Shown one piece after another: positions 2,733 through 38,300 of a stretch of DNA of 64,000 nucleotides (positions are counted from its first letter, which is position 1; every line of letters starts with the position of its first letter). The stretch is from an uncultured bacterium (GTDB taxonomy: Bacteria > Edwardsbacteria > AC1 > EtOH8). Under the pieces are notes generated by a model. The model saw only the letters and a program-made list of their open reading frames with translations, had not been told where the DNA came from and searched no databases. Where the stretch lies: the NCBI GenBank assembly GCA_963780225.1, contig CAWAAX010000006.1:18136-82135 (forward strand), written 5' to 3'. Both the position numbers and the translations under genes were made by a program.

Positions 2733-4964
2733 ATGCATAACTCCAACTTACATAAAATATTGCCTCTGGTACAGAGGCCGGGACGTTACACCGATAACGA
2801 ACTGAATTCCGTCCATAAAAACTGGGACCAGGCACAGGTAAAGATAGCTCTGGCCTATCCCGACCTTTACGAGATCGGGATGTCCGGCTTGGGGCTGGCC
2901 ATCCTTTATTCAGTGGTCAACCGGCTGCCGCAGGCATTGGCCGACCGCAGTTACCTGCCCTGGCCGGACATGGAAGAGGCCATGCGCAAGCAGGGTATCC
3001 CTCTGTTCGGATGGGAGACCCGGCGCGAGCTTAGGGAATTCGACGTCCTGGGCATCACCCTGCAGACCGAGCTGTGCTATGCCGGGGTGCTGAACCTGCT
3101 GGACCTGTCCGGCCTGCCGCTGTATGCTGATCAGCGAAAAGAGGAGCATCCCCTGGTGATCGGGGGCGGCTCCTGCTGCGCCAACCCGGCGCCGCTGTCA
3201 AAATTCTTTGATGCCTTCGTGATCGGAGACGGAGAGGAGGCCATCGTGGAGATCTGCGGGCAGCTGCAGGAAGCCAAAGCGAAAATCGAAAGCAGAAGGC
3301 AGAAAATCGAACGGTTGTCCCGGATCCCGGGTATCTATGTCCCCATGATCCATGATGGAACAAAAACCAAGATCCGGGCCAGGCATATCGCCTCACTGGA
3401 CATCAAAGACGCCGCCCACCCGCCGCTGGTGCCGCTGGTGGAGGTGACCCACGACCGGCTGACGGTGGAGATCGCCCGGGGCTGCACCCGGGGCTGCCGT
3501 TTCTGCCAGGCCGGGATGGTCTACCGCCCCCGGCTGGTAAGGTCCGAAGACGAGGTGGTGAAGCTGGCCAGGGAGGGCATCGCCAAAAGCGGCTGGGACG
3601 AGGTCTCGCTGCTCTCGCTTTCCTCCGGGGATTACCCGGATCTCCTGGGGCTGTTGCAGAAACTTAACGGTTGTTTTTCCAATTCCAAAGTGGCCATCTC
3701 CCTGCCGTCATTGCGGCTGGATTCCTTTGACGGGGAGATGATAGAGGCCCTGAAAAAGGTGAAGAAGACCGGACTGACCTTTGCCCCCGAGGCCGGCAGC
3801 CAGCGTCTGAGGGATGTGATCAACAAGGGGATCAGCAAAGAAGAATTATTGCGGGTGATAGCCCTGGCCAAAAAAGAGGGCTGGATGCAGGTCAAGCTGT
3901 ATTTCATGATCGGTTTGCCCACCGAGACCGAAGAGGACCTCAAGGAGTTGTGCGACCTCTGCCACCAGGCGTCAAAACTGGGGGTCAACCTTAAAGTGGC
4001 GGTCTCGCCCTTCGTGCCCAAGGCCCAGACCCCGTTCCAGTGGGAGGCCCAGGACAGCTGGGAGACGCTGTACCAGAAGATAGACCTTTTGTCCCGGGGC
4101 CTCAAGTCCCACAAGGTCCAGATGAAATGGCACGACCTGCGATCCTCCAAGCTGGAGGGACTGCTGGCCCGGGGCGGCAGCGAAACGGCGGCCCTGATAG
4201 AAAAGGCCTGGCAGAAGGGGGCCAAGCTGGACCAGTGGAGCGAGCATTTTGTCTGGGGGCGCTGGGAAGAGGCGATGCAGGAACTGGGCCTCGATCTGAA
4301 TAATTTGTGCCGGGCCAGGACCGACGAGGAAACATTGCCCTGGGATAACATTGATTACGGGGTCTCCAAGAAATTCCTGCTGCAGGAAAAGCAGAAAGCC
4401 TACCAGGAGCAGATCACTTCTGACTGCCGGGAGCAGGGATGCCACGGCTGCGGGGCGGACTGCGGGACGCAGGGAACAGGGATCAGGGATCAGATGTCAG
4501 GGGACAGGGGACAGGAGGCAGGGGACAGCTTAAAGCATAAAGCTGTCAGCTTACAGCTTGTTGATGGTTTCGGGCGCAGCGCCAAGAAGATGGCCGGGCC
4601 GGCCCCGCTGGCCAGGACCAAGTTCCGCCTGCGCTATGCCAAGGGGCCCGAGCTTCGCTTCATCTCGCACCTGGACCTGATGCGGGCCTGGCTGAGGGCC
4701 GTCAGCCGGGCGGAGCTGCCGGTGGCCTTCTCCCAGGGCTTTTCCCCGCATCCCAAAATAGCCTTTGGCCCGCCGCTGGCCCTGGGGCTGACCACCAGCG
4801 CCGATTACATGGACATCCAGCTGGACCGGCCGCTTTCTGAGGACATCGGACTGCTGATCAACCCCCATTTGCCGCCGGGGTTGAATGTGCTGGAGTCCAA
4901 GCCAATCTTCGGCAACGCAAAGTCAATCACCGAGCTGTGCGACGCCGCTGAATACCGGGTCTAA
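2733..4964 (+). CDS. B12-binding-domain radical SAM protein (TIGR03960-like) fused to a radical-SAM-associated DUF2344 (TIGR03936-like) domain; ends at an in-frame TAA
   Basis: The CxxxCxxC motif 'CTRGCRFC' sits within 'VEIARGCTRGCRFCQAGMVY'. The C-terminal part 'RFRLRYAKGPELRFISHLDLMRAWLRAVSRAELPVAFSQGFSPHPKIAFGPPLALG' is DUF2344-like. Confidence 0.7.
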   Translation: MHNSNLHKILPLVQRPGRYTDNELNSVHKNWDQAQVKIALAYPDLYEIGMSGLGLAILYSVVNRLPQALADRSYLPWPDMEEAMRKQGIPLFGWETRRELREFDVLGITLQTELCYAGVLNLLDLSGLPLYADQRKEEHPLVIGGGSCCANPAPLSKFFDAFVIGDGEEAIVEICGQLQEAKAKIESRRQKIERLSRIPGIYVPMIHDGTKTKIRARHIASLDIKDAAHPPLVPLVEVTHDRLTVEIARGCTRGCRFCQAGMVYRPRLVRSEDEVVKLAREGIAKSGWDEVSLLSLSSGDYPDLLGLLQKLNGCFSNSKVAISLPSLRLDSFDGEMIEALKKVKKTGLTFAPEAGSQRLRDVINKGISKEELLRVIALAKKEGWMQVKLYFMIGLPTETEEDLKELCDLCHQASKLGVNLKVAVSPFVPKAQTPFQWEAQDSWETLYQKIDLLSRGLKSHKVQMKWHDLRSSKLEGLLARGGSETAALIEKAWQKGAKLDQWSEHFVWGRWEEAMQELGLDLNNLCRARTDEETLPWDNIDYGVSKKFLLQEKQKAYQEQITSDCREQGCHGCGADCGTQGTGIRDQMSGDRGQEAGDSLKHKAVSLQLVDGFGRSAKKMAGPAPLARTKFRLRYAKGPELRFISHLDLMRAWLRAVSRAELPVAFSQGFSPHPKIAFGPPLALGLTTSADYMDIQLDRPLSEDIGLLINPHLPPGLNVLESKPIFGNAKSITELCDAAEYRV

Positions 4965-5285: not shown

Positions 5286-5297
5286 AGCTTTTTATTT

Positions 5298-5395
5298 AAC
5301 CACAGAAAGCACAAAGGGCACAAAAAATTTCTTTCTATATTTCTCAAGTGGTTTTTAAATCGTGATCCTATGTGATTTATGTGCATTTTGTGGTT
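5298..5395. repeat. Gene-less inverted-repeat hairpin of the CACRAAR family
   Basis: The left arm aaccacagaaagcacaaagggcacaaaa (5298-5327) is complementary to the right arm tgtgatttatgtgcattttgtggtt (5371-5395). The right arm is nearly identical to the right arm at 8836-8857. Confidence 0.6.
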
Positions 5396-5429
5396 AATTA
5401 AGGTAATCGGTAAAGGTGTTGGTTGAAAA

Positions 5430-6168: not shown

Positions 6169-6200
6169 TTATCCGCAGATTACGCAGATTGCACAGATTT
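6169..6200 (+). promoter_or_regulatory. TTATCCGCAGATT plus three 9-bp tandem CAGATTnnn repeats (DnaA-box-like core)
   Basis: ttatccgCAGATTacgCAGATTgcaCAGATTtt. Related copies lie at 11254-11277 and 23437-23459. Confidence 0.4.
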
Positions 6201-8368: not shown

Positions 8369-8415
8369 AAATTGTCGGGCCTGGGTGGTAAATTATGAAT
8401 CAATAAATTAATTTA

Positions 8416-8857
8416 CCACAAAAAGCACAAGGAACACATAAAATGACGGATAACGAAGTATTGCGACTATGTGATATTGTTAGGCAGACGGCCTTTGTTC
8501 TTCATACCTATTTACGGAACGGCCATTTGGAAAAGGTATATGAAAACGGATTAACCCATCGTCTTCGTAAGGCAGGAATAAAGGTCGAACAGCAGCACCC
8601 TTTAAAGGTTTTTGACGAAGATGGAACCATTCTGGGGGAGTACTTCGCAGACCTGTTAATAGAAACGGAACTTATCGTCGAACTTAAGGTCTGCAAGGCA
8701 ATAGCAGATGAGCACCTGTCCCAAGTATTCGGATATTTACGCGCCACAGGGCAGCGACATGGATTATTAATTAATTTTGGATCGCAACAAATTCAATTTA
8801 AGAAATTGGTTTTGTAGGTATGGCGTTAATTTTGCGATTTATGTGCTTCTTGTGGTT
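8416..8857. repeat. Matched inverted-repeat pair enclosing a GxxExxY gene
   Basis: The left arm ccacaaaaagcacaaggaacacataaa (8416-8442) ends 1 bp before the ATG. The right arm gatttatgtgcttcttgtggtt (8836-8857) lies 19 bp after the stop. Arm cores ccacaaRaagcaca...taaa are complementary. Confidence 0.6.
8443..8817 (+). CDS. GxxExxY family protein (PD-(D/E)XK-like small protein), paralog 1
   Basis: 'LEKVYENGL...GEYFADLLIETELIVELK...' matches the GxxExxY pattern. It is paralogous to the ORFs at 18126 and 27504. Confidence 0.8.
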   Translation: MTDNEVLRLCDIVRQTAFVLHTYLRNGHLEKVYENGLTHRLRKAGIKVEQQHPLKVFDEDGTILGEYFADLLIETELIVELKVCKAIADEHLSQVFGYLRATGQRHGLLINFGSQQIQFKKLVL

Positions 8858-10057: not shown

Positions 10058-10162
10058 ATTCAGAAGGCAAAATAAAATAACTTGCAATAACTGAGATTAA
10101 CCGGATGGATGTGCTAATCATTTAACATGCAGAATGTAAATTCCAAATTGTAAATCTGTAAA

Positions 10163-11224
10163 TTGAAGAATTGCATCCAGTGTCTTTTGCCGGAGAGCGC
10201 ACCGGGCATCAGCTTTGATGATTCCGGGATCTGCAACTACTGCCGGACATACAAGAAGACCGAGCTTAACGGCGAGGAGGCCCTGTTAAGGATCCTTGAC
10301 CGCCAGCGCCGCCGGGGCGGAAAGTACCAGTGCCTGGTGCCATTGAGCGGCGGCCGTGACAGCACCTTTGCCCTGCTGAAGATGGTCCGAGATTACGGTC
10401 TGACTGCTTTGGCGGTGAATTATCAGAATCCTTTTACTTCACCCGAAGCTGCTGCGAATATTCGGCAGGCCACCGAAAAACTGGGGGTGGAACTGGTGAG
10501 CTTTGGTCTAAAGCCGGGTTTGCACCAAATGACACTCAAGAAGAACCTGGAGGCCTGGCTCAAAAGGCCGTCGGCGGCGCTGGTTCCGATAATCTGCAGC
10601 GCCTGCCACAACATGTGGCTGCCGATCATGCAGATCGCCAAGAAACACGATATCCATTGCATAGTCACCGGGCGCAACCCCTACGAGGAGGTCTCGTTCA
10701 AACGCCGCCTGCTGGGGGTCAGCCCCGACGAGGACATCAGGAATGTCTATCTAAAGAACCTCGGAGGAATAGTCAAGGAGGCGGCCAAGAACCTGTCCTA
10801 TTTCTCGCCCCAAACCCTGCCGGTGATGATCAAGGGGCATTTCTTCGGCAGTCCCTATGCTTTGGGAACCAGGATCTACGGCCGCGGCATCGAAATGGCT
10901 GACCTGTTCTTTTACCTGCCCTGGAACGAATCTGAAGTCATGTCCCGGATCCAAAACGAGTTGGGCTGGCAAAGCCCCAAAGAGCAGGGCAACACCTGGC
11001 GCTTCGACTGCAGGGTTTCGCACCTGCGGGATCTGATGTACCAGAAGACCATCGGGATGACCGAGCGCCAGGAGCTTTACGCCCGGCTGATCCGCGAGGG
11101 GTTGATATCCAAACAGGAAATTGGAAACCGGCTGCCGGTGGAGAATGCCATCCATTATGACAAGATTGAGGCCCTGTTGGACGAAGTGGGCATAAGGGAC
11201 AGGTCTTACCTAAGACAGGAGTGA
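10163..11224 (+). CDS. N-acetyl sugar amidotransferase (PP-loop ATPase, WbuX/TIGR03573-like), polysaccharide biosynthesis
   Basis: It has the N-terminal Cys cluster 'CIQCLLPESAPGISFDDSGICNYC' and the PP-loop 'SGGRDS'. The start codon is TTG. Confidence 0.6.
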   Translation: MKNCIQCLLPESAPGISFDDSGICNYCRTYKKTELNGEEALLRILDRQRRRGGKYQCLVPLSGGRDSTFALLKMVRDYGLTALAVNYQNPFTSPEAAANIRQATEKLGVELVSFGLKPGLHQMTLKKNLEAWLKRPSAALVPIICSACHNMWLPIMQIAKKHDIHCIVTGRNPYEEVSFKRRLLGVSPDEDIRNVYLKNLGGIVKEAAKNLSYFSPQTLPVMIKGHFFGSPYALGTRIYGRGIEMADLFFYLPWNESEVMSRIQNELGWQSPKEQGNTWRFDCRVSHLRDLMYQKTIGMTERQELYARLIREGLISKQEIGNRLPVENAIHYDKIEALLDEVGIRDRSYLRQE

Positions 11225-11253: not shown

Positions 11254-11314
11254 TTATCCACAGATTAACGCAGATTGTCACCAATTATATTCATAATCAA
11301 TCTGTGTAAATCTG
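11254..11314. promoter_or_regulatory. TTATCCACAGATTAACGCAGATTG (exact DnaA-box consensus TTATCCACA) with an inverted partner CAATCTGTGTAAATCTG
   Basis: The direct copy is at 11254-11277 and the inverted partner at 11298-11314. Both lie in the amidotransferase/MIF intergenic region. Confidence 0.45.
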
Positions 11315-11829: not shown

Positions 11830-11916
11830 GCCACTAAGGCACAAAGACACAAAGGGTATTAAAAATAGTACCAAGCGCGATAAATAATTTTCTTGGAGCC
11901 TTGGTGTCTTTGTGGC
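11830..11916. repeat. Gene-less inverted-repeat hairpin of the CACRAAR family
   Basis: gccactaaggcacaaagacacaaagg (11830-11855) is complementary to ccttggtgtctttgtggc (11899-11916). It uses the same octamer units (aaagacac, taaggcac) as the arms flanking the GxxExxY gene at 27504. Confidence 0.6.
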
Positions 11917-11932
11917 TAGTAAAGGTCTTAAT

Positions 11933-13567: not shown

Positions 13568-13634
13568 AATGGTATAACGTAACAGGGTGCTAATATCCGC
13601 ATGATTTGTAACTACTTTAACAAGAGATTTTACA

Positions 13635-14276
13635 ATGTCGCCTAAAAACAATATTAACCCAACGCCTGTAACAGTTGAGAATAAAATAGAATTGCCAAAA
13701 CAAAATAATGGTATGGCATTTTGGGCTTTGGGAATTTCAGTGATATCACTTATAATAAGTAGTCTTTCCACTTATTGGATTGCGTACCCAAATTACAGTT
13801 TGAAAATTATCGATGCCAATTTATGTTTTAATGTGAAGGCCCTGTATGATACAACTTATTTAGACTCAAATTATGTGGAGTGTAAATTTTATAATGATGG
13901 CAATAGAGCTGTAACAGTAAAAGATTTTCGCTTTTACCTATCCGATAAAAATGATTCCATGTTGTTCGTTTTTCAAGATGACGTTGTTTGCCCAAAACAA
14001 ATAGAACCTGGTGATTATGCCGAAAGTATAGTAAAACTGTCTTTCATAAGGGTATATAACCCACCACCACAGCAAATCACAAAGATGAAATATCGTTTAC
14101 CTTATAAAAATTACAGCAGTTGGAAAATGTTATCCGATTCATTTCGCATGGGCCAAGCAAGTTTACCCTTAAAACGGGAAATAGAATTTAATATTAAAAT
14201 ACATTATGCCGGGAATAAAGAGCTTAAGTATAAACGATCAATTTCATGTATTTGGCCAATTCCTATAGAAGATTAA
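13635..14276 (+). CDS. Hypothetical membrane-anchored protein in an AT-rich island
   Basis: It has one N-terminal TM helix, no recognisable domain, and local base composition far more AT-rich than its neighbours. Confidence 0.4.
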   Translation: MSPKNNINPTPVTVENKIELPKQNNGMAFWALGISVISLIISSLSTYWIAYPNYSLKIIDANLCFNVKALYDTTYLDSNYVECKFYNDGNRAVTVKDFRFYLSDKNDSMLFVFQDDVVCPKQIEPGDYAESIVKLSFIRVYNPPPQQITKMKYRLPYKNYSSWKMLSDSFRMGQASLPLKREIEFNIKIHYAGNKELKYKRSISCIWPIPIED

Positions 14277-14356
14277 TTGTAGTGGGTAAACTTAGCAAAT
14301 TAATTGAATCAATTAGGTATACAGGCATTAGAAAAATATAATATTTTGGATATCAC

Positions 14357-16498
14357 ATGCAATCATCCAACCAAATACGCCAATCGTTCCTGGATTTCTT
14401 CAAATCCAAAGGCCACACCATCGTGCCATCGGCCCCGGTGGTGCCCCAGGACGACCCGACCCTGCTGTTCACCAACGCCGGGATGAACCAGTTCAAGAAG
14501 ATCTTTCTGGGAGCCGAGACCCGCGATTACAAACGAGCGGCCGACAGCCAGAAGGTCCTGCGGGTTTCGGGCAAGCACAACGACCTGGAGGAGGTGGGCA
14601 AGGACCACACCCATCACACCTTTTTTGAGATGCTGGGCAACTGGTCATTCGGCGACTATTACAAGAAGGAAGCCATCGGCTGGGCCTGGGAGCTGCTGAC
14701 CGGGGTCTGGAAACTGCCCAAAGACAGGCTTTACGCCACGGTCTACGTCACCGACGAAGAATCCTTCGGCTTCTGGAAGACCCAGACCGGCATCGACCAT
14801 TCGCACATCAGCAAGCACGGCGACAAGGACAACTTCTGGGAGATGGGCGAGACCGGGCCCTGCGGCCCCTGTTCCGAGATCCACATGGACATGGGTGAAG
14901 GCACCTGCCCCAGGGCCGGCCGGGACGGGCATGTTTGCGGCGTCAATGTTGACGGCTGCGGGCGGTTCGTGGAGATCTGGAACCTGGTCTTCATACAGTA
15001 CGACCGGGGGGCGGACGGGACCCTGAAGGAACTGCCCAGCAAACACGTGGACACCGGGATGGGTTTCGAGCGGATCGTCCGGGTGCTGCAGAACAAAGAC
15101 TCCAACTATGCCGCCGATCTTTTTGCGCCCATCATCAAGCAGACCGGGGAGCTCTGCGGCCAACAGTATTCCATTGGCCCCGAGGGCATGTCATTCCGGG
15201 TGATCGCCGACCATATCCGGGCGCTGGTGTTCACCATCGGCGACGGGGTGCTGCCCTCCAACGAGGGCCGGGGATACGTGATCCGGCGCATCCTACGGCG
15301 GGCGGCCAGGCACGGGCGCCTGCTGGGGCTCAAACAGCCGTTCCTTCACCAGCTGGCCTCCACTGTGATCGACATCATGGGCGAAGCCTATCCCGACATC
15401 AAACAGCGCCACGAGCACATCGCCATGGTCATCAAGACCGAGGAGGAGCGGTTCGGCGAGACCCTGGACCAGGGGCTTTCGCTGTTCGACCAGATCGCAT
15501 CCAAGCTGAAAACGTCCCAGGGCACCGTCATCTCAGGCCCCGACGCCTTCAAACTCTACGACACTTTCGGCTTCCCGCTGGACCTGACCCAGGTGATGGC
15601 CGAAGAACAGGGCTTGACCGTGGATTCCGAGGGCTTCAAGCAGGCCATGACCGGACAGCGGGAACGGGCCCGGGCGGCCCGGGGCGAGGTTACTTTTACC
15701 GCGGCCAAGGAAGTGGACTATCCAAATTGTGTTTTCGTGGGCTATAACAGCCTGGTGCAGAAGACGAAGGTCAACGGGATATACATCAAGGAACTGCCTA
15801 TCGATAAGGCCGAGAAGGGCCAGACCGTGGACATCACGCTGGAGAACACTCCGTTCTACGGCGAGGGCGGCGGCCAGGCCGGGGATATAGGGTTCCTGGA
15901 GAATACCAGCTGCCGGATCAAGGTGCTGAACGCCGTCAAGGCCTTTAACGGCTCCACGGTTCATCATGCCGAGATCGTCTCCGGTTCCATAAAACTCAAG
16001 GACGAGGTCACCGCCTCGGTGAACCAGCCGGCCCGCCTGAGCACCGCCCGGCACCACACCGCCACCCATCTTCTGCAGGCGGCCTTGCAGCAGATCGTGG
16101 GCAAGCACGTACAGCAGCAGGGTTCCATGGTCAGTCCGGAGCGCCTGCGCTTCGACTTCACCCATTTCGCCGGACTGGACCGGATGCAGCTGGACGAGGT
16201 GGAGCATATGGTCAACCGTAAGATCATGGACAACCTTCCTGTGGCCGACGAGCACATGAAGCTGGCCGAGGCCCAGAAGACGGGCGCCATGGCCCTGTTC
16301 GGCGAGAAATACGGGGAGGAGGTTCGGGTGATCTCCTGCGGAGACTTCTCCAAAGAACTGTGCGGCGGCACCCACGTCAAGCACAGCGGTGAGCTGGGGC
16401 TGTTTAAGATCGTCAAAGAAGAAGCCATTGCCTCCGGGGTGCGCAGGATAGAGGCCGTGGCCGGGGAGACCAGCCTACCGTCTGGTCAAGCAGGATGA
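14357..16498 (+). CDS. alaS: Alanine--tRNA ligase, N-terminal 713 aa (catalytic, tRNA-binding and editing domains); truncated by a frameshift
   Basis: 'FLDFFKSKGHTIVPSAPVVPQDDPTLLFTNAGMNQFK' is the AlaRS N-terminus. It ends at a TGA at 16496-16498 after 'IEAVAGETSLPSGQAG'. Confidence 0.9.
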   Translation: MQSSNQIRQSFLDFFKSKGHTIVPSAPVVPQDDPTLLFTNAGMNQFKKIFLGAETRDYKRAADSQKVLRVSGKHNDLEEVGKDHTHHTFFEMLGNWSFGDYYKKEAIGWAWELLTGVWKLPKDRLYATVYVTDEESFGFWKTQTGIDHSHISKHGDKDNFWEMGETGPCGPCSEIHMDMGEGTCPRAGRDGHVCGVNVDGCGRFVEIWNLVFIQYDRGADGTLKELPSKHVDTGMGFERIVRVLQNKDSNYAADLFAPIIKQTGELCGQQYSIGPEGMSFRVIADHIRALVFTIGDGVLPSNEGRGYVIRRILRRAARHGRLLGLKQPFLHQLASTVIDIMGEAYPDIKQRHEHIAMVIKTEEERFGETLDQGLSLFDQIASKLKTSQGTVISGPDAFKLYDTFGFPLDLTQVMAEEQGLTVDSEGFKQAMTGQRERARAARGEVTFTAAKEVDYPNCVFVGYNSLVQKTKVNGIYIKELPIDKAEKGQTVDITLENTPFYGEGGGQAGDIGFLENTSCRIKVLNAVKAFNGSTVHHAEIVSGSIKLKDEVTASVNQPARLSTARHHTATHLLQAALQQIVGKHVQQQGSMVSPERLRFDFTHFAGLDRMQLDEVEHMVNRKIMDNLPVADEHMKLAEAQKTGAMALFGEKYGEEVRVISCGDFSKELCGGTHVKHSGELGLFKIVKEEAIASGVRRIEAVAGETSLPSGQAG

Positions 16499-17290: not shown

Positions 17291-18049
17291 ATGATCTACC
17301 AACAACTGCTGAAAACCGCCAAGCAAAAGGGCTCGAATTTCCTGGTCCTTTTGGACCCCGACAAGTGCAAAAAACAGGACGCGGCCAAGATCGGCCAGGC
17401 CTTGAACGACGCCGGGGCCGATGGCATCCTGTTCGGCACCAGCCTGCTGATGTCCAACCAGATCGACGACACCATCAAGGCCTTAAAGCAGAACTTCAAA
17501 CAGCCGGTGATCATATTCCCCGGCAGCGCCTACCAGGTCTCGCCGCACGCCGATGCCATCCTGTACCTGTCGCTGGTCTCGGGCCGCAATGCGGAACTAT
17601 TGATCGGTGAGCAGGTCAAGGCCGCGCCCATGCTGAAAGCCTCGGGCCTGGAGGTGATCCCCACCGGCTACATGTTGATCGAGTCCGGCAAGCTGACCTC
17701 GGCCAACTACATGAGTCACACCATGCCCATCCCCCGGGACAAGTCCGACATCGCCATGGCCCACGCCCTGGCCGCCCGGATGCTGGGGATGAAGCTGATC
17801 TACATGGACGCCGGCAGCGGCGCCCAGCAGAGCGTCCCAGAGGAGATGATCGCCGGGGTGGCCAAATATGCCGAGCTTCCCGTTGTGGTGGGAGGCGGCA
17901 TCAAAACGCCCGAGGACGCCGGGGCCAAGGCCCGGGCCGGGGCCGCCGCGGTGGTGGTGGGGAACATTTTGGAGAAGAAGGGCAACATCAAGACGGCGGC
18001 GGATTTCGCCAGGGCTATTCACTTCAGGGCGAAAACAAACCGGGGCTAA
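17291..18049 (+). CDS. Geranylgeranylglyceryl/heptaprenylglyceryl phosphate synthase family protein (PcrB/GGGPS)
   Basis: 'LVLLDPDK...ADGILFGTS...IIFPGS...LIYMDAGSGA...VVVGGGIKT' follows the GGGPS/PcrB TIM-barrel pattern. A GGAGG RBS precedes the ATG. Confidence 0.7.
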   Translation: MIYQQLLKTAKQKGSNFLVLLDPDKCKKQDAAKIGQALNDAGADGILFGTSLLMSNQIDDTIKALKQNFKQPVIIFPGSAYQVSPHADAILYLSLVSGRNAELLIGEQVKAAPMLKASGLEVIPTGYMLIESGKLTSANYMSHTMPIPRDKSDIAMAHALAARMLGMKLIYMDAGSGAQQSVPEEMIAGVAKYAELPVVVGGGIKTPEDAGAKARAGAAAVVVGNILEKKGNIKTAADFARAIHFRAKTNRG

Positions 18050-18545
18050 CCACGGAAACACGGAATTTATGAAAACACGGAAACATATAAAATGATTTGT
18101 TTGATTACGTTAGGTGTGTTTATATATGAGTATAGTAAGATCTGACCATTTGGAATTAGAAGAATTAACAGGGAATATTATTTCTTGCGGAATAGAAGTC
18201 CATAAAAAACTAGGTCCCGGATTTCTGGAATCGCTATATGAATCTGCTTTGCTGGTAGAACTTCAAAAAAGAGGCTTGCATACCACAAGTCAAAAGGAGA
18301 TCAGGGTATTTTATGACGGATTTGAAATTGGCGTACACCGGCTGGACATTGTCGTAGAGAATAAAGTTATTGTTGAACTTAAAGCGGTCGCTGAACTTGA
18401 CCAATGCCATAAAGCACAGTTGCTGTCATATCTCAAGGCTAGTCATTTAAAAATTGGGTTACTGTTAAATTTTTCTAAAAATATTCTCCAGGTGAAAAGG
18501 ATGGCATATTGATTCCCAGAATTCCTCATTCAGTGTTTCCGTGGT
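18048..18545. repeat. Matched inverted-repeat pair enclosing a GxxExxY gene
   Basis: The left arm aaccacggaaacacggaatttatgaaaacacggaaacatataaa (18048-18091) is complementary to the right arm cagtgtttccgtggt (18531-18545). The core is accacggaaacac. Confidence 0.6.
18126..18512 (+). CDS. GxxExxY family protein, paralog 2
   Basis: 'HKKLGPGFLESLYESAL...IVVENKVIVELKAV' is paralogous to 8443 and 27504. The ORF-track start at 18114 is GTG; the ATG at 18126 is the more likely start. Confidence 0.8.
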   Translation: MSIVRSDHLELEELTGNIISCGIEVHKKLGPGFLESLYESALLVELQKRGLHTTSQKEIRVFYDGFEIGVHRLDIVVENKVIVELKAVAELDQCHKAQLLSYLKASHLKIGLLLNFSKNILQVKRMAY

Positions 18546-18577
18546 AAAATAAATATAACTAAATATAGGAGTCAGCA

Positions 18578-19312
18578 ATGAAAGGCGTCATCTTAGCCGG
18601 CGGCCTGGGATCCAGGCTGCGCCCATTGACCAGCATCACCAACAAGCACCTGCTGCCGGTATACGACCGGCCCATGATCTACTATCCCATCCAGACCCTG
18701 GTGGAGGCGGGGGTACAGGACATCATGCTGGTGACCGGCGGAAACGCGGCCGGGGACTTCTTAAGACTGCTGGGTAATGGCGAGGAATTCGGGCTTAAGC
18801 ACATCAATTACACCTACCAGAAGCGCGAGGGCGGGATCGCCGAGGCCTTGGGCCTCTGCCGGCATTTCGTGGGCAAGGACAAGGTGGTGGTGATGCTGGG
18901 CGACAACATCCTGGACGGATCCATCAAAAAGGCGGTCAGCGACTTCGACAAGCAGGAATCGGGCGCCAAGATCTTTTTAAAGACCGTGGACAACCCAAGG
19001 GAATACGGGGTGGCCGAGCTGAAGGGCCCGCTGGTCAAGAACATCATAGAGAAGCCCAAGAACCCCAAGAGCAACTACGCCGTCATCGGCATCTACATGT
19101 ATGACGCCCAGGTCTGGAACATCCTGAAAACCCTGAAGCCCTCGGGCCGGGGAGAGCTGGAGATCACCGACGTCAACAATGCCTTCATCCAGAAAGGCCA
19201 CATGACCTACGAGATCATCAAGGGCTGGTGGGGCGACGCCGGGTCGTCCATCGAGGACCTGTGGCGGGTCAACCACTACATCGGACAGAAGGCGGAGCGG
19301 GCCAAGCGATGA
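18578..19312 (+). CDS. Sugar-phosphate nucleotidyltransferase (RmlA-like short form)
   Basis: 'KGVILAGGLGSRLRPLTSITNKHLLPVYDRPMIYY' is the NTP-transferase signature. Confidence 0.8.
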   Translation: MKGVILAGGLGSRLRPLTSITNKHLLPVYDRPMIYYPIQTLVEAGVQDIMLVTGGNAAGDFLRLLGNGEEFGLKHINYTYQKREGGIAEALGLCRHFVGKDKVVVMLGDNILDGSIKKAVSDFDKQESGAKIFLKTVDNPREYGVAELKGPLVKNIIEKPKNPKSNYAVIGIYMYDAQVWNILKTLKPSGRGELEITDVNNAFIQKGHMTYEIIKGWWGDAGSSIEDLWRVNHYIGQKAERAKR

Positions 19313-23423: not shown

Positions 23424-23436
23424 CCGGGGACCGTTT

Positions 23437-23459
23437 TTATCCGCAGATTTAGCAGATTA
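23437..23459 (+). promoter_or_regulatory. TTATCCGCAGATTTAGCAGATTA intergenic motif, third copy
   Basis: It shares the core with 6169 and 11254 and lies between maf and mtnA. Confidence 0.35.
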
Positions 23460-23585
23460 AATAAAATAATGATTATTCGATAGTAAATACGGTTTTACAA
23501 AATAATATTTCCTGTCCTTCCTGGCTTCCTTATATGAAAATTCCCCGGTTTCTTCAGTGCTAATATATATTAAACCCTAAGGTGA

Positions 23586-27475: not shown

Positions 27476-27922
27476 GCCACAAAGACACTAAGGCACGAAA
27501 ATCATGAATTATCAACCGCTATCAACAGTAGAAGAAGAGCGGGCAAAGAAAATCGTAGATGCCGCATATGCAGTGCATAAAAAACTGGGTCCGGGGTTGC
27601 TGGAAAAAGTATACGAGGTATGTTTTTGGCATGAATTGTCTAAACGGGAATTAAGGTACCAAAGGCAAGTTGATGTACCGATTGTTTATGACGGTATAAC
27701 GTTTGATGAAGGACTATGTTTAGATGTCCTGGTGGAAAACAGCATCATCTGTGAATTGAAAGCCGTAGATGAGATGAATCCAGTCTGGGAAGCACAAATA
27801 CTGAGCCATTTAAAACTAACTGGCAAACGCCTTGGATTTCTCATCAATTTTAATCTGTCAGTTATCAAAAACGGTATTAAACGATTTATTGTATAAACTT
27901 GGTGACTTAGTGTCTTTGTGGC
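27476..27922. repeat. Matched inverted-repeat pair enclosing a GxxExxY gene
   Basis: The left arm gccacaaagacactaaggcacgaaaatc (27476-27503) abuts the ATG. The right arm cttggtgacttagtgtctttgtggc (27898-27922) lies 2 bp after the stop. The 17-bp core gccacaaagacactaag is perfectly complementary. Confidence 0.7.
27504..27896 (+). CDS. GxxExxY family protein, paralog 3
   Basis: 'HKKLGPGLLEKVYEVCF...LDVLVENSIICELKAV' matches the GxxExxY pattern. Confidence 0.8.
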   Translation: MNYQPLSTVEEERAKKIVDAAYAVHKKLGPGLLEKVYEVCFWHELSKRELRYQRQVDVPIVYDGITFDEGLCLDVLVENSIICELKAVDEMNPVWEAQILSHLKLTGKRLGFLINFNLSVIKNGIKRFIV

Positions 27923-30377: not shown

Positions 30378-30448
30378 GCGATTTTCTTCGTAACGATAGA
30401 AGCAGTTGTGCAAACCCATTAGTTAGACGCAAAAACTCTCTTGAAAAA

Positions 30449-31033
30449 ATGTCACTACTTTCAACCCATTTACATTTAGCAATTTTAGTATTGAACAAAA
30501 AAAAAGGTTCATTTTCTGACCATCCTTATCCTTTTTTGTTGGGCAACATTGCTCCAGATTGTGTGAATTTGAACGACAATACATTATTTTATAAAAGCCA
30601 TTTTGTAGAAGGACATGTAATTAATTGCGCAAAATTTATCGATGATTACTTGCCGCAATTCCAGTCGGAAGAAGAAATATCCTTTATATACGGCTATCAC
30701 TGCCATTTGTGGCTTGACGAATATGATAAAGCCAATAATATAGTAGAATATGGCCATCCCGAAAGTAAAAGTGTAGCAGAACAAAAAACTAATTTGCGGA
30801 ACGAAATAAAAGCAATAGATCGAGATACCATAGTAACGTTTGACAAAACGCTGTATAAGCATGATATTGCAAATTTAAAATTGCCAAATATTGAGCAATC
30901 CGTCAAACGTTATAAAGATATTCTTGAGAATGTATGCTCTTTTGAATACAATATCAGTGGAGTTACAAAGGAAACTTATCATTCCTATTTGCAAAAAGCA
31001 TGTATGGAATATTTAGCGATTTCCTGCAGCTAA
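30449..31033 (+). CDS. Hypothetical protein in an AT-rich island; possible Zn-dependent phospholipase-C-like fold
   Basis: 'STHLHLAI...FLLGNIAPD' weakly resembles the N-terminal His/Asp metal-ligand region of bacterial Zn-PLC-like proteins. Local composition is AT-rich. Confidence 0.3.
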   Translation: MSLLSTHLHLAILVLNKKKGSFSDHPYPFLLGNIAPDCVNLNDNTLFYKSHFVEGHVINCAKFIDDYLPQFQSEEEISFIYGYHCHLWLDEYDKANNIVEYGHPESKSVAEQKTNLRNEIKAIDRDTIVTFDKTLYKHDIANLKLPNIEQSVKRYKDILENVCSFEYNISGVTKETYHSYLQKACMEYLAISCS

Positions 31034-31167
31034 GGTACGTTGGCAGATAGGAGGTTTAGCAATATTTTTATTAATGTTACACCGTTTAAACGGGTTATTA
31101 TCATATGCTAAAATTCAATTCAGGAAAAATCTAATTACTTAATAAATCTTTAGGCTGACCTACTTAA

Positions 31168-36593: not shown

Positions 36594-36838
36594 AAGCTTC
36601 GGACCGCCCCCCTGCCCCCTCCGTTGCGGAGGGGGAGGGGAGTGTCCCTCTCCACATTGGAGAGGGACAAAGGGAGAGGTCAAAAGCTTCGGACCGCCCC
36701 CTCGTTCCCCCTCCGTAGCGGAGGGGGAATAGGTTGTGTGAATAGTTATGTGTTGATATGTTTGATGATGTAAATAAAACTGATGACGAAATCCCTCTCC
36801 ACAATGGAGAGGGGGAGGGGAGAGGTCGAACCAGGCCA
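36594..36838. repeat. GC-rich mosaic palindromic repeat modules between the MTase gene and the DUF559 gene
   Basis: aagcttcggaccgcccccctgccccctccgttgcggagggggag... occurs twice, and atccctctccacaatggagaggg extends into the 5' end of the DUF559 ORF. Confidence 0.7.
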
Positions 36839-37219
36839 GCCCACCCCAAGGGCAGCACCGGGATTATCAGGCTGCAAAAAGTGAAAAGCAGCAAATTAGA
36901 GTTGGCCAAATATTTCAGACAGCATATGACACTTGGCGAAAGGTGCTTCTGGAATATGACCCGCAAGAACCAGGTCAACGGTTACCGATTCAGACGCCAG
37001 CAGGTGATCCACGGCTTTGTTGCCGATTTCTACTGCAACCAGATAAACCTGGTGGTCGAGATAGACGGCGGCATCCACGAACAGCAGAAGGACTACGACA
37101 AGCTTCGCACAAAAATAATTAACCAGTACGGCATCCGGGTCATACGTTTTACCAACGAAGAAATGATGGATAAAAGCGATTGGGTGTTGGAGAAGTTGAA
37201 GGAAGCTGCGAGAAGTTGA
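36758..37219 (+). CDS. DUF559 (Vsr-like endonuclease-fold) protein; the 5' boundary is uncertain because the ORF's first ~25 codons are repeat sequence
   Basis: 'KLELAKYFRQHMTLGERCFWNMTR...GYRFRRQQVIHGFVADFYCNQINLVVEIDGGIHEQQKDYDKLRTKIINQYGIRVIRFTNEEM' is the DUF559 pattern. Confidence 0.7.
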   Translation: MFDDVNKTDDEIPLHNGEGEGRGRTRPAHPKGSTGIIRLQKVKSSKLELAKYFRQHMTLGERCFWNMTRKNQVNGYRFRRQQVIHGFVADFYCNQINLVVEIDGGIHEQQKDYDKLRTKIINQYGIRVIRFTNEEMMDKSDWVLEKLKEAARS

Positions 37220-37223
37220 TTGC

Positions 37224-37374
37224 CTAAAGCTTCGGACCGCCCCCTCGTTCCCCACTTTCGCTTGTCGTAGTGTTCTGCCTTGCTCAGTGCAGGCACTCCG
37301 TTGCGGAGGGGGAGGACAGACATCCCTCTCCACATTGGAGAGGGATAAAGGGAGAGGTCGAACCCCGCAGGACG
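37224..37374. repeat. GC-rich mosaic palindromic repeat modules downstream of the DUF559 gene
   Basis: ctaaagcttcggaccgccccctcgttccccactttcgcttgtcgtagtgttctgccttgctcagtgcaggcactccgttgcggagggggag...catccctctccacattggagagggataaagggagaggtcgaacc. Confidence 0.7.
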
Positions 37375-37877: not shown

Positions 37878-38300
37878 GCACCAAAACCTAAATCCTAAAC
37901 CCTAAACAAATTCCAAATCATAAGCCATAAACCCAAAACAGTTCGTTGTTTTGAGTTTGGCGAATTTATATTTGTTTAGAATTTAGATACTTGCTTCCAT
38001 CGCCGGGCAGTAGGGGCGAAGCACTAAATCCGAAATCCGAAATCCTAAACAATCCCAAATTATCAAAACCTAAAACTCAAAACTGTTTCGTACTTTGTAT
38101 TTAAACAATTAGAATTTGTTTTGAGTTTAGATACTTACTTCTATCGCAGGGCAGCAGGGGCGAAGCCCTAAATCCGAGATACGAAATCCTAAACAATCCC
38201 AAATGACCAAAACCTAAAACTCAAAACGGTTTCGTGCTTTGTATTTAATAATTAGAATTTGTTTTGAATTTAGATATTAGTATTTAGAGATTTAACCAGT
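37878..38300. repeat. Three tandem copies of a ~145-bp highly structured AT-rich repeat immediately upstream of mutL
   Basis: Units start near 37878, 38021 and 38166. Each contains the inverted repeat aaaacctaaaactcaaaac / gttttgagtttag, (g/t)aaatcc microrepeats, and a G-rich tail ctatcgcagggcagcaggggcgaag. Confidence 0.75.

What the first reader, a model, noticed from the sequence alone, without database searches (positions are those of the whole stretch)
18048..18545. Third hairpin-bounded GxxExxY cassette (arms accacggaaacac / gtgtttccgtggt)
The left arm contains the tandem units cacggaaa-cacggaat...cacggaaacat ending at the start region. The right arm cagtgtttccgtggt lies 18 bp after the stop. 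The arm sequence differs from the other two cassettes, but the architecture is identical: CACNNAAR units in the left arm and a single complementary unit in the right arm.
Basis: seen in the sequence. Interest (0 to 1): 0.65.

Follow-up and report, generated by a model that had tools for sequence, protein, structure and literature searches.

The report
Nuclease gene cassette with inverted-repeat ends
A 0.5-kb AT-rich insert between two housekeeping genes carries one small nuclease gene bounded by inverted repeats built from 8-base units, and the same layout surrounds this gene family in more than twenty phyla, so it looks like a very small, apparently undescribed kind of mobile gene cassette.

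Summary
ORF 18126-18512 encodes a GxxExxY / PD-(D/E)XK protein. It is bounded by ACCACGGAAACACGGAAT (18049-18066) and ATTCAGTGTTTCCGTGGT (18528-18545), which are 17/18 complementary and score above all 100 shuffles. Two corrections: the right arm holds two units, not one, and the third left unit lies 40 nt before the ATG.

The arms are conserved in orthologous cassettes (18/18 in L002; 15/18 plus one G-U in L007). Distant relatives have pcrB and rfbA overlapping (ATGA) with nothing between them.

The layout is general. 62 of 81 GxxExxY genes from many phyla have inverted arms of tandem 8-9-nt units. Arm type tracks the protein clade across phyla. The cassette's divergence is decoupled from that of its flanks. 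ORF-less "solo" hairpins and internally deleted copies exist, including in this window.

I found no target duplication, no G-U bias and no compensation among close relatives. The arms therefore behave like terminal inverted repeats with repeated binding motifs, not like a selected RNA stem.

Best reading: a miniature selfish cassette carried in host operons, whose ends are probably recognised by its own nuclease. The closest analogues are ORF-bearing 23S rRNA intervening sequences and REPIN/RAYT systems. The mobility mechanism is inferred, not shown. No description of it turned up in the paper library searched.

The parts
18049..18066 (+). Left terminal arm: two tandem 8-nt units (AC-CACGGAAA-CACGGAAT). 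Its first base is the last base of the pcrB-like stop codon.
   Evidence: It is invariant between the window and L002 and 16/18 identical to L007.
18073..18086 (+). Third, subterminal unit (AAACACGGAAACAT). It has no partner in the right arm.
   Evidence: D1. It is conserved as AAAACAC[G/T]GAAA in L002 and L007.
18126..18512 (+). GxxExxY / PD-(D/E)XK nuclease gene of 128 aa. The catalytic residues D74, E84 and K86, and also H26, E35, Y38 and N115, are intact.
18528..18545 (+). Right terminal arm (ATTCAGTG-TTTCCGTG-GT), 17/18 complementary to the left arm.
   Evidence: It is 94% identical to L002 and 16/18 identical to L007.
18546..18577 (+). A-rich spacer with AGGAG that supplies the ribosome-binding site of the downstream rfbA-like gene. 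It is part of the inserted interval.
   Evidence: In the empty sites L090 and L117 the rfbA ATG overlaps the pcrB stop and the ribosome-binding site lies inside pcrB.
17291..18049 (+). Upstream host gene, PcrB family (left border of the insertion site).
   Evidence: PF01884 5.7e-43. Synteny with L007.
18578..19312 (+). Downstream host gene, an RfbA-like nucleotidyltransferase (right border of the insertion site).
   Evidence: PF00483 2.4e-53. Synteny in L002, L007, L090 and L117.
8415..8856 (+). Cassette C1: arms ACCACAAAAAGCACA (8415-8429) and TGTGCTTCTTGTGGT (8842-8856), 9-nt units, GxxExxY ORF 8443-8817, upstream of recA.
27476..27922 (+). Cassette C2: arms 27476-27499 / 27899-27922 (units CACAAAGA and CACTAAGG), GxxExxY ORF 27504-27896, upstream of efp.
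11832..11917 (.). ORF-less 'solo' hairpin with C2-type units (CACTAAGG, CACAAAGA) and a 43-nt loop.
   Evidence: I25; z -5.1.
5296..5400 (.). ORF-less 'solo' hairpin with C1-type 9-nt units (AACCACAGAAAGCACAAAGGGCAC ... GTGATTTATGTGCATTTTGTGGTTAA).
   Evidence: (z -2.9).

Best explanation
The interval 18049-18545, and functionally the whole 18050-18577 spacer, is one copy of a miniature selfish gene cassette. It holds a single 128-aa PD-(D/E)XK (GxxExxY) nuclease gene. The gene is bounded by terminal inverted repeats, each made of two to four tandem 8-9-nt units with a conserved 5-nt core (here CGGAA).

The cassette was inserted into the tight pcrB-rfbA junction of a host operon, in the same orientation as the operon. 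It is presumably expressed by read-through transcription, and it leaves a new ribosome-binding site for rfbA.

The arms are the ends of the unit that is inherited and exchanged. I infer that they are arrays of binding sites for the cassette's own nuclease, which is probably a dimer. I also infer that the nuclease promotes spread or replacement of the cassette by cutting DNA and leaving repair or recombination to the host. This would be homing-like rather than cut-and-paste, because a hydrolytic nuclease cannot join strands and there is no target-site duplication.

ORF-less hairpins with the same arms are non-autonomous relatives. They could be deletion products, landing sites, or both. In the transcript the two arms can pair and close off the cassette, as in 23S rRNA intervening sequences, but that appears to be a consequence of the repeats and not the property under selection.

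Shown: the anatomy; conservation of the arms in orthologues; the empty site; the generality of the layout across phyla; co-inheritance of arms and protein; discordance between cassette and flank divergence; and selection on the catalytic residues.

Inferred: that the protein binds the arms; the nuclease-driven mobility; and read-through expression.
For: - **Anatomy and significance.**
- **Orthologous cassettes keep the arms.** This holds at the same pcrB/rfbA site in L002 (87% aa) and L007 (67% aa). Arm columns are nearly invariant while neighbouring intergenic columns vary.
- **Empty site.** In L090 and L117 the pcrB-rfbA-rmlD synteny is kept and the genes overlap as ATGA.
- **Generality.** 62 of 81 cassettes from many phyla exceed all 100 shuffles for flank complementarity. 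The arms are tandem 8-9-nt units. 4 of 5 viral-contig homologues have them too.
- **True inverted repeats with a conserved core.** Cores match 98%; linkers match 73% against 31% expected by chance.
- **Arm type follows protein clade, not host phylum.** GGGGAT-type arms occur in one protein cluster that spans five phyla. Among inter-phylum pairs, Spearman rho is 0.53 and 0 of 1000 permutations reach it.
- **Cassette history is decoupled from the flanks.** L010/L012: 97% against 79%. L018/L020: 97.6% against 88-91%. In L033/L047 identity starts at the left arm. In the window against L002, the ORF is 80% identical (third positions 59%) while rfbA is 93% (83%), and the arms are 100% and 94%.
- **Non-autonomous copies.** Internally deleted copies are bounded by the same arms. 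Solo hairpins related to C1 and C2 lie in the window.
- **The protein is under selection.** dN/dS is about 0.05 and seven residues are invariant in 85/85. The fold is a minimal Cas4/RecB/Hjc-like nuclease. Many family members are tandem two-domain fusions, which suggests a dimer.
- **Orientation.** The cassette is co-directional with both neighbours in 54 of 74 loci and antiparallel to both in 6.
- **Base composition.** Cassette GC is below flank GC in 76 of 80 loci.
Against: - No mobility event has been caught at high resolution. The only empty sites are in distant relatives (PcrB 52% identical), so gain versus loss is inferred from the ATGA overlap alone.
- The cassette has stayed at one locus across lineages that differ by 22% in AlaRS. 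That also fits a domesticated, host-useful gene.
- There is no target-site duplication.
- A lone PD-(D/E)XK nuclease is not known to transpose anything.
- Binding of the protein to the arms is untested. The correlation between protein positions and arm type is confounded by phylogeny.
- The tandem array in L047 arose by local duplication, not independent insertion.
- Homologues are rare on plasmids (8 of 72,556 records) and in viral contigs (5 loci), so the vehicle for cross-phylum spread is unknown.
- 19 of 81 family members show no significant arms.
Confidence: 0.6

Rival explanations
1. IVS-like RNA element. The arms exist to form a long-range double-stranded stem in the polycistronic pcrB-cassette-rfbA transcript. 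RNase III cuts that stem and excises the cassette RNA. This would either neutralise the insertion for the host or set the expression of the nuclease and of rfbA.
For: The RNA minimum-free-energy and centroid folds of 18044-18550 both close with the arm-arm stem. Cassettes are co-directional with host genes. ORF-bearing 23S rRNA IVSs are of the same size (428-444 nt), are bounded by a 28-bp stem of terminal inverted repeats and are excised by RNase III (PMC4990558). Genes of the IVS protein family PF05635 found outside rRNA also sit between tandem-unit inverted arms: L081 and L165, 2 of 3 testable cases.
Against: There is no excess of G.U over A.C mismatches on the sense strand (69 vs 67). Close relatives accumulate uncompensated single-arm changes. 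The unit core is far better conserved than the linkers and the core is clade-specific, which a sequence-blind dsRNA nuclease would not require. The whole-cassette fold z-score is only -1.6. There is no Rfam match. This rival can coexist with the main explanation as a side effect.
Confidence: 0.2
2. Domesticated REP/RAYT-like system. The hairpins are a host-maintained family of intergenic repeats that stabilise or punctuate mRNA. The GxxExxY nuclease is a vertically inherited, host-beneficial enzyme that maintains or disseminates them, rather than a selfish gene.
For: The cassette has been retained at the same locus with an intact active site. Solo hairpins whose units match those of the cassettes occur in the same genome. 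Several distinct lineages of protein plus arm type coexist in one genome, as reported for REPIN-RAYT systems.
Against: There are many copies of the gene per genome (three in 64 kb here), whereas RAYTs are typically single-copy (abstracts listed). The protein is not a Y1/HuH transposase. Cassette identity exceeds flank identity between species, and related proteins and arms are shared across phyla, both of which point to horizontal exchange. Cassette composition is consistently AT-shifted.
Confidence: 0.12
3. Operator/promoter repeats. The CACRGAAA units are binding sites for a regulator, or promoter elements, that control transcription of the cassette gene.
For: Tandem copies of a conserved short core lie just upstream of the ORF, 0-25 nt from the start codon in most homologues.
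Against: The same units recur inverted downstream of the stop codon and in hairpins with no gene. No sigma-70-like promoter is found on the + strand. The strong co-orientation with upstream host genes and the very short gaps (median 54 nt) suggest read-through transcription.
Confidence: 0.05
4. Chance complementarity next to an ordinary small gene.
For: None beyond the short arm length of 18 nt.
Against: The arms score above all 100 shuffles. They are conserved in orthologues. They recur in 62 of 81 homologous loci.
Confidence: 0.01

Closest known systems
ORF-bearing intervening sequences (IVS) of bacterial 23S rRNA (Coxiella, Leptospira, Salmonella; PMC4990558)
   Same: They are about 0.43-0.5 kb long and carry one small ORF of about 120-130 aa and unknown function. 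They are bounded by terminal inverted repeats that can form an 18-35-bp stem, are co-transcribed with the host gene, and have long been suspected to be selfish or mobile. Genes of the IVS protein family (PF05635) found outside rRNA have the same tandem-unit arms.
   Different: This cassette lies between protein-coding genes, not in 23S helix 25 or 45. Its ORF is a PD-(D/E)XK nuclease, not the four-helix-bundle S23p. Its arms are built from tandem 8-nt units. RNase III excision is untested here, and the arms show no RNA-type covariation.
REPIN-RAYT systems / REPtrons (PMC3116915, PMC3337134, PMC8266576)
   Same: An enzyme gene is flanked by inverted copies of a short hairpin-forming repeat. ORF-less hairpin copies lie elsewhere in the same genome. 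Several matched enzyme/repeat lineages can coexist. There is no target duplication.
   Different: The enzyme is a PD-(D/E)XK nuclease of about 125 aa, not a Y1/HuH transposase. The gene is multicopy, with signs of horizontal exchange. The repeats are arrays of 8-9-nt units without the GTAG/CGTC head.
Insertion sequences with MITE derivatives
   Same: Terminal inverted repeats with subterminal repeated motifs; internally deleted and ORF-less derivatives bounded by the same ends; AT-shifted composition.
   Different: There is no DDE, serine, tyrosine or HuH transposase and no target-site duplication. The element is only about 0.45-0.5 kb. It sits almost always within operon spacers and is co-oriented with the host genes.
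Homing endonuclease genes (including the PD-(D/E)XK enzyme I-Ssp6803I, cited from my own knowledge)
   Same: A small nuclease gene at a fixed site in conserved host DNA, with occupied and empty alleles, whose divergence is discordant with that of the flanking host sequence.
   Different: It is not inside an intron or intein. It carries its own inverted-repeat ends. It is found at many different sites per genome. No target site has been defined.
Integron gene cassettes / attC
   Same: Promoter-less single-gene cassettes associated with imperfect hairpin-forming repeats and expressed from outside.
   Different: The repeats flank the ORF on both sides. The arm ends do not show the attC core motifs (read by eye; the motifs are from my own knowledge). 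I saw no integrase gene or cassette array in the ORFs and Pfam scans I examined. The cassettes are scattered singly in housekeeping operons.

Membership tests
GxxExxY protein family (TIGR04256 / Pfam PF13366 PDDEXK_3) | Whole-protein score above the curated cut-offs of both models. | tested here: met
   TIGR04256 scores 146.2 bits against a cut-off of 35. PF13366 scores 140.9 bits against a cut-off of 22.
GxxExxY protein family (TIGR04256 / Pfam PF13366 PDDEXK_3) | GxxExxY motif and the PD-(D/E)XK catalytic residues D...ExK. | tested here: met
   G32, E35, Y38, D74, E84 and K86 are present. E35, D74, E84 and K86 are invariant in 85/85 homologues; G32 and Y38 in 84/85. The predicted fold is a PD-(D/E)XK core.
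23S rRNA intervening sequence (IVS) | Inserted in a 23S rRNA helix (helix 9, 25 or 45). | tested here: not met
   The cassette lies between a PcrB-family gene and an RfbA-like gene. No rRNA or any other Rfam family is found in the window.
23S rRNA intervening sequence (IVS) | Bounded by complementary termini that form a stem enclosing the element. | tested here: met
   The arms are 17/18 complementary. The RNA minimum-free-energy and centroid folds close with this stem.
23S rRNA intervening sequence (IVS) | Excised from the transcript by RNase III. | not testable with these tools
   This needs RNase III cleavage assays or RNA end mapping.
23S rRNA intervening sequence (IVS) | The ORF, when present, belongs to the S23p / 23S_rRNA_IVP four-helix-bundle family. 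| tested here: not met
   The ORF is PF13366, not PF05635. PF05635 genes with similar arms do occur elsewhere, in L081 and L165.
REPIN-RAYT system | The enzyme is a REP-associated tyrosine (Y1/HuH) transposase. | tested here: not met
   The only family matched is PD-(D/E)XK.
REPIN-RAYT system | The gene is flanked by inverted copies of the repeat, and ORF-less copies are dispersed in the genome. | tested here: inconclusive
   Flanking inverted arms are present. Solo hairpins related to C1 and C2 lie in the window, but none of the C3 type is found in these 64 kb. A whole genome is not available.
Classical IS / MITE (DDE-type transposon) | Terminal inverted repeats. | tested here: met
Classical IS / MITE (DDE-type transposon) | Target-site duplication flanking the repeats. 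| tested here: not met
   Direct repeats of 2-8 nt outside the arms are no more frequent than in shuffled pairings in 52 loci. There is none at C1, C2 or C3.
Classical IS / MITE (DDE-type transposon) | Encodes a recognised transposase. | tested here: not met
   Pfam and NCBIfam give only GxxExxY / PDDEXK_3.
Homing endonuclease gene | Occupied and empty alleles of the same conserved host site. | tested here: met
   The site is occupied in the window, L002-L005 and L007. It is empty, with an ATGA overlap, in L090 and L117. The empty sites are only in distant relatives.
Homing endonuclease gene | Element divergence is discordant with that of the flanking host DNA. | tested here: met
Homing endonuclease gene | The nuclease cleaves the empty target site specifically. 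| not testable with these tools
   This needs biochemistry.
Integron cassette (attC) | A single attC downstream of the ORF with RYYYAAC / GTTRRRY cores (motifs from my own knowledge), and an integrase or cassette array nearby. | tested here: not met
   The arms flank the ORF on both sides and end in ACCAC / GTGGT (read by eye). I saw no integrase among the ORFs listed for 14-23 kb or in the Pfam scan of the two neighbouring genes.

The most novel reading that the evidence does not exclude
GxxExxY cassettes are a previously unrecognised class of autonomous mobile elements, and the smallest known at about 0.45-0.5 kb. A dimeric 120-aa PD-(D/E)XK nuclease reads the 8-nt unit arrays in its own terminal repeats and in ORF-less hairpins elsewhere. 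It cuts there and lets host repair copy the ORF in. This would be homing into hairpin 'landing pads', with matched nuclease/hairpin lineages coexisting in one genome. The ORF-bearing intervening sequences of 23S rRNA would then be the rRNA-resident branch of the same superfamily of inverted-repeat-bounded mini-cassettes, which would explain their long-debated origin.
Probability: 0.3. Interest if true: 0.88.

Novelty: new variant of a known kind. Interest (0 to 1): 0.72.

Why it matters
The GxxExxY / PDDEXK_3 family is very large. It has 35,709 representatives at 50% identity and spans bacteria, archaea and some viruses. Its function is listed as unknown (PMC3424549). The paper library searched holds only three papers that use the name, and the one I read mentions it only in passing.

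A conserved, testable architecture gives the family a concrete hypothesis. That architecture consists of a nuclease gene, terminal inverted repeats of tandem octamers, ORF-less derivatives, operon-internal co-oriented insertion, and a history decoupled from the flanks.

It would also explain the many AT-rich islands and odd tandem-unit hairpins in intergenic regions of uncultured phyla. It offers a route to the unresolved question of what ORF-bearing rRNA intervening sequences are. It also points to a compact nuclease with short, modular recognition motifs that vary by clade.

For annotation, these arms mark the cassette boundaries and flag intergenic repeats that gene callers ignore.

Tried and rejected
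- **Rfam.** No match in the whole window at gathering thresholds, and none in 17950-18650 at E <= 5. The arms are not a curated RNA family.
- **tRNA genes.** None in the window, so there is no tRNA-linked integration.
- **PADLOC.** Only marginal Cas4 / type II specificity-subunit hits (E > 1e-3). It is not a known defence protein.
- **PDB by sequence.** No relative found.
- **Promoter and terminator scan.** Nothing on the + strand.
- **Shared AATAAATATA motif after the right arms.** My degenerate pattern was badly designed and missed the C1 and C3 sites. By eye, the downstream flanks in other phyla are simply A-rich spacers leading to the next gene's ribosome-binding site. I dropped this.
- **RNA wobble test.** G.T 69 against A.C 67, so there is no RNA signature.
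- **Target-site duplication.** None.
- **'Polarity' of the arms relative to the ORF.** I first read the predominance of purine-rich units upstream of the ORF as linked to expression. An inverted repeat reads the same on both strands, so this says nothing about gene orientation. The seven 'flipped' loci are ORFs lying between two hairpins.
- **The L047 array.** It looked like repeated insertion but is a tandem duplication of a deletion derivative plus a 123-nt spacer.
- **Exact-sequence look-ups** of the window's EF-P and RfbA proteins found nothing, so the orthologous sites of C1 and C2 were not examined.
- **Plasmids and viral contigs.** Few homologues, so no obvious vector.
- **Protein residues versus arm type.** The correlation is too confounded by phylogeny to use.
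- **Literature.** Searches for the family names and for the arm sequences gave no description of the architecture.
Full report
**1. The observation**

Reading 17700-18900 shows an AT-rich island (GC 0.38 against about 0.6-0.67 around it). It lies between a PcrB-family gene (17291-18049) and an RfbA-like nucleotidyltransferase gene (18578-19312).

The island holds one ORF, 18126-18512, of 128 aa. It matches Pfam PF13366 PDDEXK_3 (3e-41) and NCBIfam TIGR04256 "GxxExxY protein" (4.9e-43).

The left arm ACCACGGAAACACGGAAT (18049-18066) and the right arm ATTCAGTGTTTCCGTGGT (18528-18545) are 17/18 complementary. A local-alignment score for complementarity between the two flanks is 31. The mean over 100 shuffles is 15.5 and the maximum is 21.

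The left arm is two 8-nt units, CACGGAAA and CACGGAAT. A third unit lies at 18076-18086.

Two details are not. The right arm has two units, not one. The third left unit ends 40 nt before the ATG.

The two sister cassettes exist:
- C1: ORF 8443-8817, arms 8415-8429 / 8842-8856, 9-nt units.
- C2: ORF 27504-27896, arms 27476-27499 / 27899-27922.

**2. Orthologous loci and an empty site**

The exact protein occurs on one other short contig.

An 87%-identical protein (P0002) sits upstream of the same rfbA gene in five metagenome contigs, L002-L006. In L002 the arms are perfectly complementary, 18/18.

A 67-68%-identical protein (P0004) is in *Candidatus* Edwardsbacteria GCA_001780135.1 (L007). The synteny is the same: AlaRS-PcrB-cassette-RfbA-RmlD-SIS-YbbR-TsaD. 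The window therefore most likely comes from a relative of that lineage; this is an inference.

In L007 the arms are ACCACGGAAACACTAAAT / ATTCAGTGATTCTGTGGT. That gives 15 Watson-Crick pairs, one G-U and two mismatches. One position reads G-C in L002, U-A in L007 and G.A in the window.

In the three-way alignments the arm columns are nearly invariant, while adjacent intergenic columns vary. Between the window and L002:

| Region | Identity |
|---|---|
| Left arm | 100% |
| Right arm | 94% |
| 5' leader | 75% |
| ORF | 80% (third codon positions 59%) |
| rfbA | 93% (third codon positions 83%) |

A scan of metagenomes with RfbA found two contigs, L090 and L117. They keep PcrB (52% identical)-RfbA (70-74%)-RmlD synteny, and there the pcrB stop overlaps the rfbA start (ATGA) with nothing in between. 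Relative to that state, the whole 528-nt interval 18050-18577 is an insertion that also supplies a new ribosome-binding site for rfbA.

**3. The architecture is general**

A profile of 21 homologues (A1) retrieved 80 loci from GTDB species genomes. They include Planctomycetota, Verrucomicrobiota, Desulfobacterota, Armatimonadota, Cloacimonadota, Elusimicrobia, Omnitrophota, Patescibacteria, Bacteroidota, Spirochaetes, Acidobacteriota and a Thermoplasmata archaeon.

In most of them the ORF is bracketed, within about 0-30 nt of the start and stop, by inverted arms of 15-40 nt. The arms are built from tandem 8-9-nt units. Examples are ATCACGAAAGCACGAAAGTACGAAAACACGAAA / TTTCGTGTTTTCGTACTTTCGTGTTTTCGTGAT, and the AGGAAGGCAGGAA-, GGGGATAGGGGGAT- and CAGATTAAACAGATT-types.

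Of the 81 cassettes tested (78 of these loci plus C1-C3), 62 exceed all 100 shuffles of their own downstream flank. Four of five homologues on viral contigs also have such arms.

In CGAAA-type cassettes the 5-nt cores match between the arms at 98%. The 3-nt linkers match at 73%, against 31% expected for random partners. The arms are therefore genuine inverted repeats, but the core is under much stronger constraint than the rest.

**4. DNA repeat or RNA stem?**

As RNA, 18044-18550 folds with the arm-arm stem closing the molecule in both the minimum-free-energy and the centroid structure. The overall z-score is only -1.6.

Across about 56 cassettes, mismatches that would be G.U on the sense transcript number 69. 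Those that would be A.C number 67.

Closely related cassette pairs (L018/L020, L010/L012, L031/L032/L037 and others) differ by single-arm changes without compensation.

There is no Rfam match even at E <= 5.

I conclude that pairing as such is not detectably selected. The arms behave like terminal inverted repeats that carry repeated, sequence-specific motifs. The RNA stem is real as a thermodynamic possibility and may matter, but it is not what the sequence statistics point to.

**5. The cassette is the unit of inheritance and exchange**

- **Arm type follows protein clade across host phyla.** One protein cluster (Marinifilum, Botrimarina, Lacipirellulaceae, Nitrospinae, Rhodospirillales, Spirochaetes) has GGGGAT/GGAGA-type arms throughout. 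Among 1304 inter-phylum pairs, arm 6-mer similarity rises with protein identity: Spearman 0.53, with 0 of 1000 permutations as high.
- **Cassette identity exceeds flank identity between species.** L010/L012: 97% against 79%. L018/L020: 97.6% against 88-91%. L039/L043: 96% against 87%. The near-identical block ends close to the arms, at the edges of the intergenic spacer.
- **A breakpoint at the arm.** In L033/L047 the left flanks are unrelated, and identity begins 2-3 nt before the left arm.
- **The reverse pattern also occurs.** In the window against L002 the interior is three times more diverged than rfbA while the arms are conserved.
- **Composition.** Cassette GC is below flank GC in 76 of 80 loci, by 9 points on average and by 22 points here.
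- **Paralogues.** Two cassettes 85% identical lie at unrelated loci of one MAG, L032 and L037.

These are the signatures of an element that is exchanged or replaced independently of its surroundings.

**6. Non-autonomous relatives**

Hairpins with the same kind of arms but no ORF are common next to cassettes in many loci, with loops of 17-100 nt.

In the window:
- 11832-11917 has C2-type units and a 43-nt loop.
- 5296-5400 has C1-type 9-nt units. Its right arm GATTTATGTGCATTTTGTGGTT is close to GATTTATGTGCTTCTTGTGGTT in C1.

Both fold well as single strands, with z -5.1 and -2.9. No C3-type solo is present in these 64 kb.

Longer "solos" in L033, L047 and L084 are internally deleted cassettes that keep the ORF ends. 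The L047 array is a local tandem duplication.

There is no target-site duplication.

**7. The protein**

H26, E35, D74, E84, K86 and N115 are invariant in 85 homologues; G32 and Y38 are conserved in 84 of 85. dN/dS against L002 is about 0.05.

The family has 35,709 representatives at 50% identity (E <= 1e-3). Many of the best hits are tandem two-domain fusions, which suggests that the working unit is a dimer.

The 2012 survey of the superfamily lists PF13366 as function unknown, with multiple transfers (PMC3424549).

**8. Context**

Cassettes are co-directional with both neighbours in 54 of 74 loci and antiparallel to both in 6. The median gaps are 54 and 78 nt. The cassettes therefore fill short operon spacers and are probably transcribed by read-through. 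No sigma-70-like promoter is found on the + strand here.

Homologues are rare on plasmids, in 8 of 72,556 records.

**9. Mechanism proposed**

The best-supported reading is a miniature selfish cassette whose ends are the tandem-unit inverted repeats.

The core motif is strongly conserved within a clade, differs between clades, and travels with the protein across phyla. The factor that recognises it is therefore most economically the only cassette-encoded protein, the nuclease. This is an inference.

A hydrolytic nuclease cannot join DNA, and no target duplication is seen. I therefore favour a homing-like or gene-conversion route: a cut at arms or solo hairpins, then repair templated by a cassette with matching arms. 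I favour this over cut-and-paste transposition. This too is an inference.

Persistence at the pcrB/rfbA site across lineages, together with discordant interior divergence, fits recurrent replacement at a fixed site.

The RNA stem could additionally allow RNase III to excise the cassette from the operon transcript, as in rRNA IVSs. This is untested.

**10. Comparison with known systems**

- **ORF-bearing 23S rRNA IVSs** are the closest. In Coxiella the element is 428-444 nt, has a 28-bp stem of terminal inverted repeats, is excised by RNase III, carries an S23p ORF, and has long been suspected to be mobile (PMC4990558). Genes of that ORF family (PF05635) outside rRNA sit between the same kind of tandem-unit arms in 2 of 3 testable cases in my loci: L081, and L165 with GGGGATA-type units. 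Membership fails on location and ORF family.
- **REPIN-RAYT systems** share the logic of an enzyme gene flanked by inverted hairpin repeats plus ORF-less copies. The enzyme class and copy number differ.
- **IS/MITE** membership fails on transposase and target duplication.
- **Integron cassette** membership fails on attC cores (judged by eye) and on context.

I found no description of this architecture in the searchable library. That library lacks most subscription-journal papers, so prior description cannot be excluded.

**11. Verdict**

The finding is real and is one member of a very widespread cassette family that is apparently undescribed as an element. I rate it a new variant of a known kind: a small mobile element bounded by inverted repeats, IVS-like. 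Interest is about 0.7.

The mechanism is a reasoned inference. It needs the biochemical and population-genomic tests listed under next steps.

Noticed in passing
window 6174-6199, 11261-11314, 23425-23545: A second type of tandem-unit array is present. It reads CCGCAGATTACGCAGATTGCACAGATT at 6174. At 11261-11314 it forms a clean solo hairpin (CCACAGATTAACGCAGATTG ... CAATCTGTGTAAATCTG, DNA fold z -5.3). At 23425-23545 a CAGATT-type half-arm sits about 80 nt from an AGGAA-type complement (TTCCTGTCCTTCCTGGCTTCCTTAT). CAGATT-type arms bound GxxExxY genes in L079, L081 and L086, so this genome probably hosts more arm lineages than the three cassettes seen.
   Followed up: partly
window 18093-18146: A 17-codon mini-ORF (ATGATTTGTTTG...TGA) starts directly after the third unit, in the context ATATAAAATG. 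This resembles the true start context of cassette C1 (ACATAAAATG). The mini-ORF overlaps the GxxExxY start out of frame. L002 has a 3-codon version. It could be a relic of the ancestral start or an upstream ORF.
   Followed up: no
L007 4001-4003: The orthologous GxxExxY gene in the Edwardsbacteria genome appears to start with ATC where homologues have ATG. Either it uses a rare start codon or the copy is beginning to decay.
   Followed up: no
window 8384-8419: Just upstream of C1's left arm there is a local hairpin, GGTGGTAAATTA...TAATTTACCAC. The ACCAC of the arm can therefore also pair with an upstream GTGGT. This might be the remnant of the right end of another element.
   Followed up: no
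window 13570-14384 and 30403-31190: Two further AT-rich islands (GC about 0.32) each carry one orphan ORF: 13635-14276 (213 aa, no Pfam hit) and 30449-31033 (194 aa, not scanned against Pfam). They lie between GC-rich housekeeping genes. The repeat scan detected no tandem-unit arms around them. They may be other kinds of inserted cargo.
   Followed up: partly
window 4470-4559; 10135-10165: Period-7 tandem arrays are present: CAGGGAA about 6.6 copies followed by ACAGCTT 5 copies at 4470-4559, and TGTAAAT 4.3 copies at 10135-10165. Their relation to the 8-nt unit arms is unknown.
   Followed up: no
window 36615-37346 and 37883-38285: There is a cluster of other repeats. The palindrome TCCCTCTCCACATTGGAGAGGGA has three copies (36645, 36791, 37323). 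CCCCCTCCGTTGCGGAGGGGGA has two copies (36615, 36706). There is also a 144-nt tandem repeat with internal period-7 arrays (AAACCCT, AAATCCG, TCAAAAC). They look like REP-like elements of a different family.
   Followed up: no
P0121-P0128 and many others: Many of the highest-scoring family members are 250-295-aa proteins with two tandem GxxExxY domains. These are natural pseudo-dimers and would be good candidates for structural work.
   Followed up: no
L081 336-722; L165 3291-3659: 23S_rRNA_IVP (S23p, four-helix-bundle) genes located outside rRNA are flanked by inverted arms of tandem units. In L081 the units have period 7 (GTAGAAAGTAGGAGGTAGG). In L165 they are GGGGATA-type. This is the same architecture as the GxxExxY cassettes.
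   Followed up: partly
L041 1294-2764; L032 1706-2970: In Planctomycetota some GxxExxY genes lie between two hairpin elements rather than inside one. Neighbouring arm pairs enclose other cargo: a 220-aa ORF without a Pfam hit in L041, and an FRG-domain protein in L032.
   Followed up: partly
window 5-312: A 123-nt tandem repeat (2.5 copies, 89% matches) at the start of the window. It is probably a repeated protein domain in a coding region.
   Followed up: no
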